32,000 bases of DNA, taken from the NCBI RefSeq assembly GCF_000013905.1, contig NC_007969.1:630001-662000 (forward strand), given 5' to 3'. The notes below the pieces were generated by a model. It ran no database searches and was not told the DNA's origin. It worked only from the letters and a program-made list of their open reading frames with translations. Shown piece by piece: positions 22,003-29,293 of the stretch; positions within the stretch are counted from its first letter, which is position 1; the number at the start of each line of letters is the position of its first letter. Origin of the DNA: Psychrobacter cryohalolentis K5. GTDB lineage: Bacteria; Pseudomonadota; Gammaproteobacteria; Pseudomonadales; Moraxellaceae. Both the position numbers and the translations under genes were made by a program.

Positions 22003-23541
<1,539 letters not shown>

Positions 23542-23626
23542 TAGATGGCATTCGGTCAGCAAGAATTCACAACAAGTTGTTCTTTAGTTTAAGCTAGTTT
23601 ATTAGCTAGAGGTATATGCCTCGTAC

Positions 23627-23703
23627 AGGCCTGTAGCTCAGCTGGTTAGAGCACCGTGTTGATAACGCGGGGGTCGGCAGTTCAAGTCTGCCCAGGCCTA
23701 CCA
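23627..23703 (+). tRNA. tRNA-Ile (anticodon GAT)
   Basis: 77 nt. Acceptor stem AGGCCTG/CAGGCCT, anticodon loop TTGATAA, T-loop GTTCAAGTC, encoded CCA. It sits in the 16S-23S spacer. Confidence 0.97.
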
Positions 23704-23709
23704 TTATTA

Positions 23710-23785
23710 GGGGCCATAGCTCAGTTGGTAGAGCGCCTGCCTTGCACGCAGGAGGTCAACGGTTCGACTCCGTTTGGCTCCACCA
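23710..23785 (+). tRNA. tRNA-Ala (anticodon TGC)
   Basis: 76 nt. Acceptor stem GGGGCCA/TGGCTCC with the G3:U70 identity pair, anticodon loop CTTGCAC, T-loop GTTCGACTC, encoded CCA. Confidence 0.97.
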
Positions 23786-24155
23786 CATAATAAACTTCTT
23801 TAGATGCTAATAAATAAATAGGTATCAAATAGAAACAAGTGATTCGTCTTAACAAAGACAAGATTACTTCTTTCTGTTTTATACAGAATCTGTGACTCGA
23901 CGAGAGCACAGAGACTATTTAAAAACATAGATATGAGTCTGGGTTAGGAACACGTGTTCACGCGTTGTTTCTAACCTTAATAACTCACTACTTAACGACA
24001 TCAGTTGTTATCCCAGTAGTGAGTTATTAAAAAAGTAAAGAGAACTGAATCAAGCGTATAAAATTAGGTGATATCGTTATCATAATTAGGCTTATATAGC
24101 ACTTAGAAATCTAACTCCTATCTTTAGTAATAAAGGTTAGAGAAAGACTACTTGG

Positions 24156-27025
<2,870 letters not shown>

Positions 27026-27206
27026 ACAACACCCAAGTGGTTTGTATGAAAGCTCTAATTAATCTATCTTGTATAGCCTAGGCTATAGAATATATATAAT
27101 TTCGATATCACCTTTAACCTTGATTCAGTTAGGTTACAAGTTGGTCGACCAATAGATAATATCTTGACGTCAAAACAATAATAATAGACTCATATCTAAC
27201 CCCCTT

Positions 27207-27321
27207 TGCTGACGACAATAGCACGATGGAACCACCTGATCCCTTCCCGAACTCAGAAGTGAAACATCGTCGCGCCAATGGTAGTGTGGTTCGCCCATGT
27301 GAGAGTAGGTCATCGTCAGCT
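27207..27321 (+). rRNA. rrf: 5S ribosomal RNA
   Basis: TGCTGACGAC...CCGAACTCAGAAGTGAAAC...GGTAGTGTGG...GAGAGTAGGTCATCGTCAGC, with terminal helix GCTGACGA/TCGTCAGC. Ends are accurate to about +/-3 nt. Confidence 0.93.
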
Positions 27322-27335
27322 CTCTATTCTGAAAT

Positions 27336-27370
27336 ATCCCCCGACTAGTTATCTAGGCGGGGGATTTTCT
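27336..27370 (+). terminator. rrn operon rho-independent terminator
   Basis: ATCCCCCG-a-CTAG-ttat-CTAG-g-CGGGGGAT is followed by TTTTCTTT. It is a strong GC stem 15 nt after the 5S gene. Confidence 0.85.
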
Positions 27371-27485
27371 TTGCCTGACGTTTTGTTCCGTGCCTTAGAA
27401 CCTAATTAATTTAGATTGTTGAAACGTGTTATTGATGATAGATTTCAGGAATAATAAGTTATTAGGTCTTTTTCTAAGGATGAGT

Positions 27486-28502
27486 ATGATTGAAGTTAAA
27501 ATACCTCAAAATTTATCTCTTACCAATGCGTTAAATTTCTGTAATCGCTTGTGGGATTTAGATGATTCAGATAAATATGCTTTTGATTTTGTTAACTTGG
27601 AGTTTATTGAACCATTTACAATGGCATATGTTGCTAATGAGTTGAAACGATTTAGACAAACTAAGATAGAAAGTGAATTTGTAGCCTTGAATCATCAACA
27701 TAAAACATACGCTGCACATATGGGTTTTTTTAAAGCTTTTGGGCTTGATTGTGGAAATAAGCCTGGTCAGGCAGCTGGTAGTAGTACTTATCTGCCTTTA
27801 ACTATACTTAATGTTGCTGAACTTAAAAAAGAAGCTGCTGATGCATATGATCATGTTGGAAATGTGATTGAATCTAAATCAGAAGATATTGCGAAAATAT
27901 TAACTCGTCAAGAAGAAGGTGATCTGGTTGATACTCTTACTTTTTCTATTAGAGAGATAATTAGAAATATCGTTGAGCACTCTGATTCTAAAGTAATCGA
28001 ATATTGCGCACAATATTGGCCAACTAAAAATATAGTTGAATTAGCTATTCTAGATACTGGTAATGGAATTATGAAAGGGTTATCTACTAACCCCCATTTG
28101 ATTATCAAAGACGAGAGGGATGCTTTGCATTTAGCTATGTTACCAGGAGTATCTGGTAAAATGTATAAAGGTGTCAAAAAGCGAAGAGATGATGAGTGGC
28201 AAAACTCTGGATTTGGTCTTTATATGACAAGTAGGATTTGTAGAAATGGTGGCGATTTCTTTATAGTAAGCAATGATAAAAGTATCTTTTTGGATAGTAA
28301 GTCAAAGCGAGACATCGAATGTAATTATAGAGGAACAGCTTTAAGACTTCGTATAGATACTAGTCGAATATCTACCTATAGCGATATGCTTGCCCAGTAT
28401 CGTAAAGAAGGTTTTGAGGCTGCTAAAAGATTCTCCGGTAAAGATGCAGTTGAGCCATCCATTGCATCTACTATGTTAGCTAGAGATTTTAAAGAAAATT
28501 AA
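27486..28502 (+). CDS. GHKL-superfamily (histidine-kinase-like, RsbW/SpoIIAB-type) ATPase with an N-terminal STAS-like region; function unknown
   Basis: Bergerat-fold motifs appear in the correct order and spacing. The N box is REIIRNIVEH (nt 27951-27980). G1 is ILDTGNGI (Asp at nt 28053). The lid segment is LPGVSGK. G2 is NSGFGLYM (Gly at nt 28209). There is no HisKA/DHp His box, no TM segment and no receiver domain. The N-terminal ~130 aa contain FDFVNLEFIEPFTMAYVANELKRF, which resembles the beta3-alpha2 region of STAS / anti-sigma antagonist domains. I chose ATG 27486, 5 nt after TAAGGA. In-frame alternatives are ATG 27480, ATG 27435 and GTG 27426. GC is low (~32%). Confidence 0.8.
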   Translation: MIEVKIPQNLSLTNALNFCNRLWDLDDSDKYAFDFVNLEFIEPFTMAYVANELKRFRQTKIESEFVALNHQHKTYAAHMGFFKAFGLDCGNKPGQAAGSSTYLPLTILNVAELKKEAADAYDHVGNVIESKSEDIAKILTRQEEGDLVDTLTFSIREIIRNIVEHSDSKVIEYCAQYWPTKNIVELAILDTGNGIMKGLSTNPHLIIKDERDALHLAMLPGVSGKMYKGVKKRRDDEWQNSGFGLYMTSRICRNGGDFFIVSNDKSIFLDSKSKRDIECNYRGTALRLRIDTSRISTYSDMLAQYRKEGFEAAKRFSGKDAVEPSIASTMLARDFKEN

Positions 28503-28582
28503 TAGGCTAATTGAGCGGAACTTTTACCGTATGCTTGGTTTTATCATTTTATAGTTGCTTAATAGAATATCAGGGTCTTAAT

Positions 28583-29161
28583 ATGAGTAAATTAATTAAC
28601 CAAATTTCTATCGGTTGTGCAGTGAATGCTGCAATCATAAATGATGTAATGACCAAAGAAAAAGGAACCTTCAACGATTCATGCATAGAAGTGCCCAAAA
28701 AACATAATATAATCTCTCCCGAGCCTAATATGGCATGGCCTTTTCAAAATGCATCTTGGGAGGCATACAAACTTTATTGCATGATTGTTGTTCCCAAAGA
28801 ACTATATAAACTAGCTAAGGATGATAAATATTATTTGGACTTGGTTAAAGAAGATGTAATGCGTAACTTTACTATTAAAAAACAAGAAAAATCTTTTCAA
28901 GAATCAGCGCTATATCACTTTAATTCTTTACGTAACTCAATATCGCACGTCAATTATTCCATTACAGATGATGGATCTTTTGTAATGTGGGATCATAAAT
29001 ATAGACAGGAAGCTGAAGAGCTTTGGCATTGGCACATTGAAATCAATAAAAGTGATATGGACTTATTCCTTGGCGAAATTAGTAGACACATTTTTAATTT
29101 GTATAATGAAATAGAGCGAGGGCTTCGTGATTCAAATACTTATGCCATTATAACTTCATAG
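28583..29161 (+). CDS. Hypothetical protein with an RNxxxH (HEPN-type) motif; putative RNase effector
   Basis: 192-aa ORF on the same strand, 80 nt after gene A, with the same low GC (~35%). The motif LRNSISH (nt 28931-28948) lies in the C-terminal half inside a predicted helical context (ESALYHFNSLRNSISHVNY). This fits the R-N-x3-H form of the HEPN Rx4-6H catalytic motif. I recognise no other family. ATG 28583 follows a weak AGGG SD. An in-frame TTG at 28511 would add a hydrophobic 24-aa N-terminus. Confidence 0.7.
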   Translation: MSKLINQISIGCAVNAAIINDVMTKEKGTFNDSCIEVPKKHNIISPEPNMAWPFQNASWEAYKLYCMIVVPKELYKLAKDDKYYLDLVKEDVMRNFTIKKQEKSFQESALYHFNSLRNSISHVNYSITDDGSFVMWDHKYRQEAEELWHWHIEINKSDMDLFLGEISRHIFNLYNEIERGLRDSNTYAIITS

Positions 29162-29293
29162 TAGGTGAACCCCTTTCCTAAAAGTAGAAAAACTAAAATC
29201 TTACGTTGCAACCAACAAATCTGAAGTACTTATCATCTCCGAATATCTTATTCAAAACCTTTTAAAAAATTGTAGCCTATCAAAGAGAACCCT

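What the first reader, a model, noticed from the sequence alone, without database searches (positions are those of the whole stretch)
27486..28502. Gene A fuses a STAS-like N-terminal region to an RsbW/SpoIIAB-like GHKL kinase core (a possible self-contained partner-switch)
The C-terminal half has motifs in the order and spacing of the anti-sigma Ser/Thr kinases of partner-switching modules: EIIRNIVEH (N box), DTGNG (G1), PGVSGK (lid) and GFGLY (G2). The N-terminal half contains FDFVNLEFIEPFTMAYVANELKRF. By eye this aligns with the STAS segment hDhSGVxFhDSSGLGhLh that carries the phospho-acceptor Ser in SpoIIAA/RsbV. Here the equivalent positions read EPFT, so Thr is a candidate acceptor. In classical systems the kinase and its STAS substrate are separate proteins. 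A single-chain version next to a putative nuclease would suggest ATP- or phosphorylation-gated control of an effector rather than of a sigma factor. No sigma factor or PP2C phosphatase gene is present in the cassette.
Basis: inference. Interest (0 to 1): 0.7.

Follow-up and report, generated by a model that had tools for sequence, protein, structure and literature searches.

The report
Orphan CapK/VapK-like kinase in fossil integron cassette
Gene A really is a STAS domain fused to a SpoIIAB-like kinase, but it belongs to a large uncharacterised branch of the recently described ssDNA-sensing CapK/VapK kinases, it travels alone as an integron gene cassette, and it is not functionally tied to the HEPN nuclease gene beside it.

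Summary
The motifs are present as described. An AlphaFold model (pLDDT 87.7) shows an N-terminal STAS-like domain packed on a SpoIIAB-type GHKL kinase, followed by a conserved ~45-aa tail.

The proposed mechanism does not hold:
- The canonical STAS phospho-Ser position aligns to Pro43, which is invariant in 228 family members. Thr45 is Thr in only 49% of them.
- Gene A is a detectable sequence homologue of VapK (hhalign 93%, E 3e-7). VapK and CapK are STAS–GHKL kinases published in 2026. Their own STAS domain helps sense ssDNA, and their substrate is a separate STAS protein.
- The gene-A family (about 1,600 clusters at 50% identity, dN/dS 0.03–0.08) has no such partner gene.

The family occurs as a solitary gene. 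In relatives it is a canonical integron cassette with matching core sites and a folding attC. It also sits on a 6.8-kb plasmid and beside R-M and DISARM systems.

In the window, A and the HEPN gene B are two independent ex-cassettes with decayed attC sites, downstream of an rRNA operon. Homologues of B occur without A, and homologues of A occur without B.

Best reading: a stand-alone, signal-activated Ser/Thr kinase acting on an unknown target encoded elsewhere, probably in phage defence or stress response. This is a new variant of a known kind, of moderate interest.

The parts
27400..27467 (.). A 68-nt attC-like imperfect inverted repeat (ACCTAAT ... ATTAGGT). It ends exactly where the conserved gene-A cassette begins. 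The core site is degenerate: ATT in place of GTT.
   Evidence: Inverted repeat I1: 25-nt arms, 72% complementary. Relatives carry GTTAAGT or GTTAGGT at the same offset. It folds only weakly: -3.5 kcal/mol, z -0.86.
27462..27485 (+). Conserved 5' leader of the gene-A cassette (TTAGGTC...CTAAGGATGAGT), including the Shine-Dalgarno AAGGA at 27476-27480.
   Evidence: The sequence is conserved from the core site to the ATG in L010-L014, L016 and L070-L072. Upstream of the core site the sequences are unrelated.
27486..28502 (+). Gene A: a 338-aa STAS-GHKL protein, an orphan homologue of CapK/VapK (WP_198010339.1).
27486..27845 (+). N-terminal STAS-like domain (aa 1 to about 120). Pro43 is invariant at the position of the SpoIIAA phospho-Ser. 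The YAAHMGFF motif (aa 75-82) resembles YLNRLGFF in the CapK sequence (resemblance by eye only; the hhalign did not align this region).
   Evidence: Beta-alpha repeat topology in the AF2 models. Foldseek hits to STAS domains. hhalign register. Conservation. CapK sequence.
27855..28361 (+). Linker helix plus a SpoIIAB/RsbW-type GHKL kinase domain (aa about 124-292). It carries the N box E157/N161, G1 D190-G194, a long basic lid (aa 220-240) and G2 G242-Y246. The conserved hairpin QYWPTK (aa 176-181) sits where CapK has its ssDNA-contact lysines.
   Evidence: Foldseek hits to SpoIIAB, probability 1.0. Invariant catalytic residues. Alignments to VapK and CapK.
28362..28499 (+). Family-specific C-terminal extension (aa 293-338): a long helix (298-320) followed by the conserved tail xPS325xAS328TMLxRDF. 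It is absent from CapK; the VapK alignment ends before it (only VapK residues 1-286 were read).
   Evidence: Secondary structure and pLDDT of 69-89. S325 is 91% and S328 90% conserved. The VapK and CapK alignments end at about aa 286.
28494..28568 (.). Decayed attC remnant of the gene-A cassette. Only its first half is still homologous to the functional attC sites of relatives, and no hairpin remains.
   Evidence: Alignment A2. Fold z-score +1.07, compared with -18.1 kcal/mol and z -2.4 for the L011 attC.
28583..29161 (+). Gene B: a 192-aa HEPN protein of the pEK499_p136 family (WP_011512906.1), with the motif RNSISH at aa 117-122. It is an independent former cassette, not a conserved partner of A.
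   Evidence: Pfam PF18736, E 1.4e-5; all 23 homologues carry PF18736. Motif position. Homologues L073-L077 lack A, and L073 is itself a cassette with its own attC.

Best explanation
**What it is.** Gene A encodes a stand-alone member of the CapK/VapK superfamily of STAS-GHKL Ser/Thr kinases. It belongs to a large, strongly conserved and so far unnamed family of about 338 aa.

**Shown:**
- A catalytically intact SpoIIAB-type ATP-binding kinase domain is packed against an N-terminal STAS-like domain.
- That STAS domain cannot be phosphorylated at the canonical site, because Pro43 is invariant there. VapK likewise has Pro57 at this position.
- A family-specific C-terminal helix and Ser-rich tail follow the kinase domain.
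- The gene moves as a single-gene unit. In relatives it is a canonical integron cassette. It is also a lone accessory gene on a small plasmid, and an insert beside R-M, DISARM or Avs-like genes.
- In this window it is a fossil cassette with decayed attC sites, lying next to an unrelated HEPN cassette just downstream of an rRNA operon.

**Inferred, by homology to CapK/VapK:**
- The internal STAS domain is a regulatory or ligand-binding module. Together with the conserved QYWPTK hairpin and the basic lid of the kinase, it forms a groove that senses an infection or damage cue. This cue is most likely a nucleic acid such as ssDNA.
- Ligand binding switches on the kinase.
- No CapS/VapS-type STAS substrate is encoded nearby, so the output would be phosphorylation of a target encoded elsewhere (a host or phage protein), giving a phage-defence or stress response.
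- The neighbouring HEPN gene is not part of the mechanism.
For: **Architecture.** AF2 model with pLDDT 87.7 and pTM 0.86. Foldseek finds SpoIIAB at probability 1.0 together with STAS hits. The domain-only search is dominated by STAS domains at probability 0.9-0.99.

**Homology to the known kinases.**
- VapK: hhalign probability 93%, E 3.3e-7, over 221 columns spanning both domains. BLASTP E 7e-8.
- CapK: N box to G1, probability 77%.
- CapK/VapK biology comes from PMC13373217.

**Active site and selection.** Catalytic residues are 100% conserved, P43 is 100% conserved, and T45 is not conserved. dN/dS is 0.03-0.08.

**No STAS partner.** No ORF like CapS, SpoIIAA or DUF4325 lies within about 5 kb (4-6 kb fetched per side) in about 75 loci. 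More distant tail-less relatives in Streptococcus prophages do have a 99-aa DUF4325 partner.

**Solitary and mobile.**
- Contexts L070-L072 show no conserved partner.
- A lone copy sits on the 6.8-kb plasmid p2OC074.
- Cassette boundaries GTTAAGT/ACTTAAC and GTTAGGT/ACCTAAC are exact complements.
- The relatives' attC sites form hairpins; the window's do not.

**Defence contexts.**
- DISARM, in the order DrmMI - methyltransferase - A - DrmA - DrmB.
- Type I and type III R-M systems, the candidate PDC-S06 and an Avs4-like gene.
- Gene A matches the N-terminal part of a 1750-position PADLOC DrmA model, E 6e-9.
Against: - No biochemical data exist for this family. Kinase activity, as opposed to ATPase activity or simple binding, is inferred only from homology.
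- The ssDNA-stacking aromatic residue of VapK (F54) aligns to position 40 of A, which is variable in the family. CapK W68 has no aligned aromatic either. The ligand may therefore differ.
- Similarity to CapK covers only part of the kinase domain.
- STAS fold matches have modest TM scores (0.45-0.5) and E-values of 0.015-0.1. hhalign against SpoIIAA is not significant.
- No substrate has been identified.
- Many neighbours in integron arrays are unrelated cassettes, so guilt by association with defence genes is weaker than in ordinary operons.
- PADLOC v2 has no dedicated model for this family, so a defence role is untested.
Confidence: 0.55

Rival explanations
1. Gene A is a self-contained partner switch: the kinase phosphorylates Thr45 of its own STAS domain in cis, and this gates the adjacent nuclease, gene B.
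For: - The STAS plus SpoIIAB-like kinase architecture is real.
- A HEPN gene follows 81 bp downstream on the same strand.
- A single-chain partner switch with autophosphorylation has a precedent in Rv1364c.
Against: - Thr45 aligns to SpoIIAA Gly60, and the acceptor position is the invariant Pro43.
- Thr45 is Gly or Ala in 37% of members.
- The A-B linkage is not conserved in either direction.
- Both genes are separate integron-type cassettes, divided by an attC remnant.
- In CapK/VapK the fused STAS domain is a sensor, not a substrate.
Confidence: 0.05
2. In this particular genome A and B work together as a kinase-controlled HEPN toxin module. It would have been assembled by chance from two cassettes, analogous to VapK-VapS-VapC but without the STAS adaptor.
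For: - The two genes share a strand, an 81-bp spacing and a low-GC islet (0.34-0.36, against about 0.41 in the flanks).
- The attC between them has decayed, so they are now inherited as one unit.
- Other family members sit beside nuclease genes: HNH in L007, HEPN_Swt1 in L013, RE_endonuc in L032 and L033, and a HEPN_RES_NTD1-like partner in the alphaproteobacterial branch.
- VapKSC shows that a relative can control an RNase toxin.
Against: - No co-conservation: B homologues at 53-71% identity lack A, and A homologues at 83-84% identity lack B.
- B has no STAS domain or recognisable acceptor module. Its HEPN domain occupies aa 64-170 of 192.
- Nuclease genes are common cassette cargo, so adjacency inside an integron array carries little weight.
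Confidence: 0.12
3. A is not primarily a kinase. It would be an ATP-dependent binding protein, similar to an anti-sigma factor, that sequesters or remodels a component of the transcription machinery such as a sigma factor or RNA polymerase.
For: - The closest solved folds are anti-sigma factors that bind sigma F.
- At least 12 of 150 representative family members carry a C-terminal Tudor-like domain of the PcrA/UvrD type. One of them, P0182, passes the Pfam threshold for PF21196 at 28.7 bits; the other eleven were recognised by the motif GxxVxHxxFGxGxV or by inspecting the sequence.
- From general knowledge, this domain is an RNA-polymerase interaction module in PcrA/UvrD.
- A solitary gene with very high cross-phylum conservation fits a conserved host target.
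- Some RsbW homologues lack kinase activity (PMC7693655).
Against: - All residues needed for ATP binding and phosphotransfer in kinase-active SpoIIAB/RsbW proteins are invariant.
- The nearest sequence relatives with experimental data, CapK and VapK, act through phosphorylation.
- The window protein itself has no Tudor domain.
Confidence: 0.13
4. The conserved C-terminal tail (Ser325/Ser328) is a built-in substrate or pseudosubstrate that replaces the missing STAS partner. A would then be a true one-protein switch whose autophosphorylation releases or activates an output.
For: - The distribution is complementary. The relatives that were examined for partners (CapK, VapK, the Streptococcus prophage proteins) lack an aligned tail (VapK read only to residue 286) and have a separate STAS substrate gene. 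The tail-bearing family has none.
- S325 and S328 are about 90% conserved.
- The tail motif EPSxAS resembles the helix-N-terminal acceptor motif (D/E)-S-S of STAS domains (sequence inspection).
Against: - No structural or biochemical evidence.
- A few full-length members lack both serines.
- The tail may simply mediate oligomerisation or partner binding.
Confidence: 0.15

Closest known systems
VapK and CapK: ssDNA-activated STAS-GHKL Ser kinases of the VapKSC toxin-antitoxin system and the CapK/CapS immune-operon regulators (Chambers et al., EMBO J 2026, PMC13373217)
   Same: - Same STAS to GHKL order in a single chain.
- Detectable sequence homology across both domains to VapK (hhalign 93%, E 3e-7) and across the N box to G1 region of CapK.
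- Pro at the STAS acceptor position in both A (P43) and VapK (P57).
- CapK carries a similar-looking motif (YLNRLGFF versus YAAHMGFF in A; by eye only, not aligned).
- Association with R-M systems, defence islands and mobile elements (paper).
   Different: - No adjacent CapS/VapS STAS substrate gene.
- No N-terminal HTH, which CapK has.
- No VapC PIN toxin.
- An extra conserved C-terminal helix and Ser-rich tail of about 45 aa.
- The ssDNA-stacking aromatic residue (VapK F54) is not conserved at the aligned position. CapK K237/K239 correspond to a conserved QYWPTK hairpin.
- Only about 22% identity to VapK.
- The gene is usually solitary and cassette-borne.
- No Psychrobacter, Lacimicrobium or Aliikangiella entries occur in the paper's datasets. 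This was checked by organism name only.
SpoIIAB/RsbW anti-sigma Ser kinases with their SpoIIAA/RsbV STAS antagonists (classical partner switching)
   Same: - Best structural matches for both domains.
- N box, G1 and G2 motifs intact.
   Different: - Kinase and STAS are fused here.
- The STAS acceptor Ser is replaced by an invariant Pro.
- No sigma-factor gene and no PP2C phosphatase gene lie nearby.
- The context is mobile-element and defence related, not developmental or stress-sigma related.
Rv1364c of M. tuberculosis: a single-chain sensor - PP2C - GHKL kinase - anti-sigma-antagonist protein (PMC7693655, citing Greenstein 2009)
   Same: A GHKL kinase and a STAS domain lie in one polypeptide. 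This is the precedent for a self-contained partner switch.
   Different: - Domain order is reversed: in Rv1364c the STAS domain is C-terminal to the kinase.
- The Rv1364c STAS domain is phosphorylatable and is autophosphorylated.
- Rv1364c has PP2C and sensor domains.
- Gene A has none of these features.
Integron gene cassettes that carry phage-defence genes (for example 'Mobile Integrons Encode Phage Defense Systems', bioRxiv 10.1101/2024.07.02.601719)
   Same: - Relatives of A and of B are single-ORF cassettes bounded by GTTRRRY core sites.
- The stop codon lies inside the RYYYAAC box, followed by a hairpin-forming attC.
   Different: - In the window the attC sites have decayed, with ATT or ATC cores and no hairpin.
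- No integrase was found among the ten larger window ORFs scanned with Pfam.
- No defence phenotype has been shown for this family.
DISARM DrmA variants with an N-terminal extension (PADLOC model PDLC02567)
   Same: - Gene A matches positions 62-272 of that 1750-position DrmA model (E 6e-9).
- In L064 the free-standing A homologue lies immediately upstream of DrmA, which matches positions 558-1724 of the same model.
   Different: - The window protein is free-standing and has no DISARM genes nearby.
- The role of the module in DISARM is unknown.

Membership tests
GHKL (Bergerat-fold) ATPase/kinase, SpoIIAB/RsbW clade | N box (E...N), G1 (DxGxG) and G2 (GxGL) motifs in order; fold closest to the anti-sigma Ser kinases rather than to MutL/Hsp90/MORC | tested here: met
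   E157, N161, D190, G192, G194, G242 and G244 are 100% conserved in 228 members. The four top Foldseek PDB hits are all SpoIIAB, probability 1.0. A MutL-type N-terminal domain (3h4l_B) reaches only TM 0.17.
Classical partner-switching module (SpoIIAB-SpoIIAA-sigma F, RsbW-RsbV-sigma B) | Cognate sigma-factor gene, a separate STAS antagonist and a PP2C phosphatase encoded with the kinase | tested here: not met
   The islet holds only A and the HEPN gene B. The downstream genes are OsmC, FMN_red-like and DUF938. No SpoIIAA-like or CapS-like ORF occurs in the window or in about 75 related loci.
STAS domain (SpoIIAA/RsbV type) | Four- to five-stranded beta-sheet with an alternating alpha/beta topology | tested here: met
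   Secondary-structure order is beta-alpha-beta-alpha-beta-alpha-beta-alpha. The domain-only Foldseek search is dominated by RsbS, TM1442, SLC26 STAS and SpoIIAA at probability 0.9-0.99, but with TM only 0.45-0.5 and E 0.015-0.1. Support is therefore moderate.
STAS domain (SpoIIAA/RsbV type) | Conserved phosphorylatable Ser/Thr at the N-terminus of helix alpha-2 (SpoIIAA Ser58) | tested here: not met
   The position aligns to Pro43, which is 100% conserved. Thr45 aligns to Gly60 and is only 49% Thr. That Ser58 is the acceptor was checked against the 1tid_B S58A sequence.
CapK/VapK STAS-GHKL kinases | STAS followed by a GHKL kinase in one chain, with sequence homology to the founding members | tested here: met
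   hhalign against VapK: probability 93%, E 3.3e-7, 221 columns. BLASTP E 7e-8. CapK: probability 77% over the N box to G1 region only.
CapK/VapK STAS-GHKL kinases | An immediately adjacent gene for a STAS-domain substrate (CapS or VapS). All 443 capK genes are followed by capS, and VapK lies in the three-gene vapKSC operon. | tested here: not met
   No such ORF was found with phmmer, hmmsearch or jackhmmer in any locus. Pfam scans of 20 immediate neighbours gave no STAS or DUF4325 hit. A distant prophage relative does have a DUF4325 partner.
CapK/VapK STAS-GHKL kinases | Activation by ssDNA bound between the STAS and GHKL domains, with a conserved stacking aromatic residue (CapK W68, VapK F54) | tested here: inconclusive
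   VapK F54 aligns to position 40 of A, which is variable (F 22%, R 18%, H 13%). The hairpin that corresponds to CapK K237/K239 is a conserved QYWPTK, with W178 at 94%. Binding itself cannot be tested with these tools.
Integron gene cassette | A single ORF bounded by GTTRRRY core sites, with an attC whose R'' (RYYYAAC) and R' boxes are complementary and which folds as a hairpin | tested here: inconclusive
   Met in relatives: L010-L014, L017, L041 and L070-L072, with ACTTAAC/GTTAAGT and ACCTAAC/GTTAGGT as exact complements. The L011 attC folds at -18.1 kcal/mol, z -2.4. In the window only remnants survive: ATTAGGT at 27461-27467, a half attC at 28494-28568, and no significant fold.
Integron (complete) | IntI tyrosine recombinase and an attI site next to the cassette array | tested here: not met
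   The ten window ORFs scanned (250-470 aa) are housekeeping genes; no Phage_integrase hit appeared. The array abuts the rRNA operon. Smaller ORFs were not scanned.
HEPN superfamily, pEK499_p136 family (gene B) | An Rx4-6H catalytic motif and a match to the family profile | tested here: met
   RNSISH at aa 117-122. PF18736 gives E 1.4e-5 at 25.3 bits, just below the 26.6-bit cut-off. The source databases annotate it, and all 23 homologues, as PF18736.

The most novel reading that the evidence does not exclude
The gene-A family may be a genuine one-protein signalling and defence module that has dispensed with the separate STAS substrate of CapK/VapK.

In this reading, a nucleic-acid cue binds the groove between the STAS and GHKL domains and activates the kinase. 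The kinase then phosphorylates its own conserved C-terminal tail (Ser325/Ser328), components of the transcription machinery, or both. A transcription target is suggested by the roughly 8% of family representatives that carry a C-terminal Tudor domain of the PcrA/UvrD RNA-polymerase-binding type.

The result would be a single-gene, integron-borne abortive-infection or stress switch.
Probability: 0.15. Interest if true: 0.75.

Novelty: new variant of a known kind. Interest (0 to 1): 0.5.

Why it matters
CapK/VapK kinases were described only in 2026, as two- or three-gene systems in which the kinase needs a dedicated STAS substrate.

This family keeps the sensor-kinase chain but has lost the partner and gained a conserved tail. 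It comprises about 1,600 clusters at 50% identity and occurs from Gammaproteobacteria to Chloroflexota and Firmicutes, with more distant relatives in prophages. It is under very strong purifying selection and moves as a single-gene integron cassette.

If it is an active defence or stress kinase, three things would follow:
- The STAS-GHKL sensor can be rewired to outputs other than STAS phosphorylation.
- An abundant class of integron cassettes and defence-island genes of unknown function would gain a function.
- It would provide a compact, one-gene system for studying how anti-sigma-type kinases are switched on by ligands.

The case also illustrates that adjacency inside a former cassette array is not evidence of an operon.

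Tried and rejected
**Searches that did not name or place the family**
- Pfam, NCBIfam and PADLOC gave only a sub-threshold HATPase_c_2 hit and an N-terminal match to one DrmA model.
- A profile search of PDB sequences found nothing useful.
- hhalign of the N-terminal domain against SpoIIAA is not statistically significant (E 0.04). It was used only to fix the alignment register.

**Search for a conserved partner gene**
- All-against-all BLAST of 151 neighbouring ORFs gave almost only singletons.
- No neighbour resembled CapS, SpoIIAA or DUF4325.

**A-B operon hypothesis: rejected**
- Contexts of three close A homologues and three B homologues show no co-occurrence.

**Other checks**
- The promoter and terminator scan of the islet was no better than shuffled sequence. 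Only the rrn terminator and one weak promoter-like site upstream of B appeared.
- Pfam scans of members with N-terminal extensions (P0123, P0121, P0124) found no domain in the extensions.
- A MORC/MutL-type GHKL assignment was considered and rejected.
- Thr45 as the acceptor was rejected on register and conservation.
Full report
**Setting.** The window comes from Psychrobacter cryohalolentis; the gene-A product is identical to WP_198010339.1. An rRNA operon occupies 22003-27321: 16S, two tRNAs, 23S and 5S. It ends in a terminator hairpin at 27333-27368. Directly downstream lies a low-GC islet (0.34-0.36, against about 0.41 in the flanks). The islet holds gene A (27486-28502) and gene B (28583-29161). 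After it come housekeeping-type genes: OsmC, an FMN-reductase-like gene and DUF938. The ten other window ORFs I scanned (250-470 aa) are also housekeeping genes, and none is an integrase.

**The observation.** The motifs are not chance matches. The Mg/ATP-binding residues E157, N161, D190, G192, G194, G242 and G244 are invariant in 228 full-length family members. Against seven relatives, dN/dS is 0.03-0.08 with synonymous sites near saturation. The family is large: 919 hits in the 90%-clustered database and 1,592 representatives at 50% identity with E ≤ 1e-3. Nearly all are about 335-345 aa and annotated as hypothetical. Pfam sees only a sub-threshold HATPase_c_2 match, and NCBIfam sees nothing.

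**Fold.** An AlphaFold2 model built on 25 homologues is confident, with pLDDT 87.7 and pTM 0.86. It has four parts:
- a beta-alpha-repeat domain, aa 1 to about 120;
- a linker helix;
- a GHKL domain, aa about 141-292;
- a long helix followed by a short tail, aa 293-338.

Foldseek against the PDB puts four SpoIIAB chains first, at probability 1.0 and target TM 0.62-0.69. Further down it lists RsbS, SpoIIAA, TM1442 and SLC26 STAS domains for the N-terminal part. A separate model of residues 1-122 gives a hit list dominated by STAS domains: RsbS 0.99, TM1442 0.97, prestin and SLC26A7 0.99, SpoIIAA 0.92. TM scores are only 0.45-0.5 and E-values 0.015-0.1. Support is strong for the kinase domain and moderate for the STAS domain.

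**The proposed acceptor.** However, the SpoIIAA acceptor is Ser58, the first Ser of DSSG; the S58A crystal variant 1tid_B reads DASG. That position is Pro43 in gene A, and Pro43 is 100% conserved in the family. It also starts helix alpha-2 in the model. Thr45 aligns to Gly60 and is T 49%, G 26%, A 11% and S 8% across the family. The fused STAS domain is therefore not a canonical phospho-acceptor.

**Closest known relatives.** A literature search found Chambers et al. (EMBO J 2026, PMC13373217).
- CapK (HTH-STAS-GHKL) and VapK (STAS-GHKL) are Ser kinases resembling anti-sigma factors.
- They are activated by ssDNA, which is predicted to bind in a groove between their own STAS and GHKL domains.
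- They phosphorylate a separate STAS protein. Phosphorylated CapS releases DNA and de-represses an immune operon. Phosphorylated VapS releases the VapC toxin.

I took the VapK and CapK sequences from the paper's source data. The gene-A family profile aligns to VapK over both domains: hhalign probability 93%, E 3.3e-7, 221 columns; BLASTP E 7e-8 at 22% identity. It aligns to CapK over the N box to G1 region at probability 77%. VapK also has Pro (P57) at the acceptor position. By eye, CapK has a motif (YLNRLGFF) resembling YAAHMGFF in A; hhalign did not align this region. CapK N218 corresponds to A N161. The CapK ssDNA-contact lysines K237/K239 fall on A's conserved hairpin QYWPTK, in which W178 is 94% conserved. 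The stacking residue VapK F54 aligns to position 40 of A, which is variable. Gene A is therefore a distant homologue of VapK, and possibly of CapK, in a distinct family. Its ligand may differ from theirs.

**No partner gene.** All 443 capK genes are followed by capS, and vapK lies in the vapKSC operon. Around gene-A homologues I found no such partner.
- Neighbours in about 60 genome loci are almost all unrelated to each other.
- Searches with phmmer, hmmsearch and jackhmmer, using CapS, SpoIIAA, a DUF4325 protein and the family's own STAS profile, found no separate STAS ORF within about 5 kb (4-6 kb fetched per side).
- Relatives at 83-84% identity sit alone among unrelated genes.
- A 41%-identical homologue is a lone accessory gene on a 6.8-kb Acinetobacter plasmid, next to BrnT/BrnA.
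- In contrast, more distant, tail-less relatives (25% identity, 298 aa) in the accessory end of Streptococcus prophages are followed by a 99-aa DUF4325 STAS-like protein (Pfam E 9.6e-11).

Presence of the C-terminal tail and absence of a STAS partner thus go together. The tail carries S325 (91% conserved) and S328 (90%).

**Why the neighbours vary: integron cassettes.** Upstream of the start codon, the close relatives share sequence only from a GTTAAGT core site onward, about 20-26 nt before the ATG. Their stop codon lies inside an ACTTAAC box, which is the exact complement of GTTAAGT. An attC of about 100 nt follows and ends in GTTAGGC or GTTAGGT. A 42%-identical homologue (L041) has the compensating pair GTTAGGT/ACCTAAC. 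The L011 attC folds as a long hairpin: -18.1 kcal/mol, z -2.4.

A B homologue (L073) is likewise a cassette, with ACCTAAC at its stop codon, GTTGGAT at the end of its attC and a folding attC.

In the window the same boundaries survive only as remnants:
- an attC-like inverted repeat at 27400-27467, ending in ATTAGGT where the conserved cassette leader starts;
- an A-B spacer that is homologous only to the first half of the relatives' attC;
- none of the three spacers folds better than shuffled sequence.

The 'cassette' is therefore a fossil two-cassette array without an integrase in view. B homologues at 53-71% identity occur without A. The A-B adjacency is an accident of the array, not a conserved operon.

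**Other contexts.** Outside integrons, family members lie in several defence settings:
- in the DISARM order DrmMI - methyltransferase - A - DrmA - DrmB (L064; L056 likewise has A followed by homologous ~1150-aa and ~500-aa genes);
- next to a type III restriction enzyme (L033, and L019 with a type III methylase);
- next to type I HsdR/YgjP or HsdM and the candidate PDC-S06 (L027, L015, L037);
- next to an Avs4-like NACHT protein (L046) and helicase/PLD genes (L053).

Gene A itself matches the N-terminal part of a 1750-position PADLOC DrmA model (E 6e-9). This mirrors the paper's observation that 88 of 443 capKS pairs follow an R-M system, and it supports a role in defence or DNA-damage sensing.

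At least 12 of 150 representatives carry a C-terminal Tudor-like domain of the PcrA/UvrD type. P0182 scores 28.7 bits for PF21196; the other eleven were recognised by the motif GxxVxHxxFGxGxV or by inspecting the sequence. From general knowledge this domain binds RNA polymerase, which hints at a transcription-linked target.

**Mechanism.**
- *Shown:* an intact SpoIIAB-type ATP site; a fused STAS domain that cannot be phosphorylated at the canonical site; homology to ssDNA-activated kinases; single-gene mobility; no adjacent substrate gene.
- *Inferred:* the STAS-GHKL groove senses a nucleic-acid or damage cue and switches on phosphorylation of a target encoded elsewhere, possibly including the protein's own tail. 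The likely outcome is defence or a stress response.

I put the overall reading at about 0.55. The rivals are rated as follows:
- cis-Thr45 partner switch gating B: 0.05;
- an ad hoc A-B toxin module in this genome: 0.12;
- a non-kinase, anti-sigma-like binder of the transcription machinery: 0.13;
- tail autophosphorylation as a built-in switch: 0.15.

**Novelty and interest.** The architecture is no longer new: CapK/VapK were published in 2026, and Rv1364c is an older single-chain partner switch. What remains is a very widespread, strongly constrained, partner-less variant with its own tail. It is frequently an integron cassette, and I found it neither in the one paper that describes the superfamily (checked by organism name) nor as its own PADLOC family. 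That makes it a new variant of a known kind. I score the interest at 0.5.

Noticed in passing
window 27400-27467, 28494-28568, 29162-29293: The islet downstream of the rRNA operon is a fossil integron-type array of two cassettes (A and B). Its core sites are degenerate (ATTAGGT, and TCAGGGT in place of GTTAGGG), its attC sites have decayed, and no integrase is in view. It resembles a CALIN (a cluster of attC sites lacking an integrase) that has been immobilised beside the rrn operon.
   Followed up: yes
P0132, P0151, P0156, P0170, P0173, P0182, P0185, P0193, P0196, P0218, P0254, P0256 (family members): About 8% of the listed family representatives carry a C-terminal domain of about 60 aa (motif GxxVxHxxFGxGxV in most). 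It matches the PcrA/UvrD Tudor domain; P0182 passes the Pfam threshold for PF21196. P0182 appears to have two copies. This suggests a link to RNA polymerase or transcription.
   Followed up: partly
L064 5-11010 and L056 (Chloroflexota MAGs): A free-standing STAS-GHKL gene lies between the methyltransferases (DrmMI plus a small methyltransferase) and DrmA/DrmB of a DISARM system. One PADLOC DrmA model (PDLC02567, 1750 positions) contains the same module at its N-terminus, so some DrmA proteins appear to be fused to it.
   Followed up: partly
L080 3001-4190 (Streptococcus phage phiGBSVK-D_GBSInt8.1, and other Javan-type prophages): In the accessory region of the prophage, between an ORF annotated 'integrase family protein' and paratox, lies a 298-aa STAS-GHKL protein. 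It overlaps a 99-aa DUF4325 STAS-like gene (sequence ...ISEVSSSF...). This looks like a prophage-borne CapK/CapS-like pair.
   Followed up: partly
L079 5774-7618 (Phaeobacter plasmid pP129_f) and L028 (Pseudaestuariivita); L026 (Maritimibacter) has an upstream gene with no Pfam match: In the alphaproteobacterial branch of the family, a gene of 239-272 aa lies 4-6 nt upstream. Two of these three proteins weakly match HEPN_RES_NTD1 (E about 5e-4); the Maritimibacter one gave no Pfam hit. This may be a lineage-specific two-gene version.
   Followed up: partly
L004 3430-4884: A 484-aa ORF two genes upstream of an A homologue ends in a HEPN-like RNSIAH motif. Gene B has RNSISH, and the Lacimicrobium neighbour, a HEPN_Swt1 protein, has RNPIAH.
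   Followed up: no
L011 6121-6546, L016 6056-6736, L041 6134-6814, L068 3549-4172: Several ORFs immediately downstream of A homologues look like small membrane proteins with hydrophobic segments and have no Pfam match. Most are probably neighbouring cassettes of unknown function.
   Followed up: no
window 27480-27488: Two in-frame ATG codons (ATGAGTATG) are conserved across the cassette relatives. Some databases call the 340-aa form. The spacing from the Shine-Dalgarno sequence favours the second ATG, at 27486.
   Followed up: partly
window 28511-28582: The mechanical ORF list extends gene B to a TTG at 28511 (216 aa). The homologues and the cassette boundary (about 28566) indicate the ATG at 28583 (192 aa). 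A weak sigma-70-like site (TTATCA-16-TAGAAT, 28541-28568) lies inside the attC remnant.
   Followed up: partly
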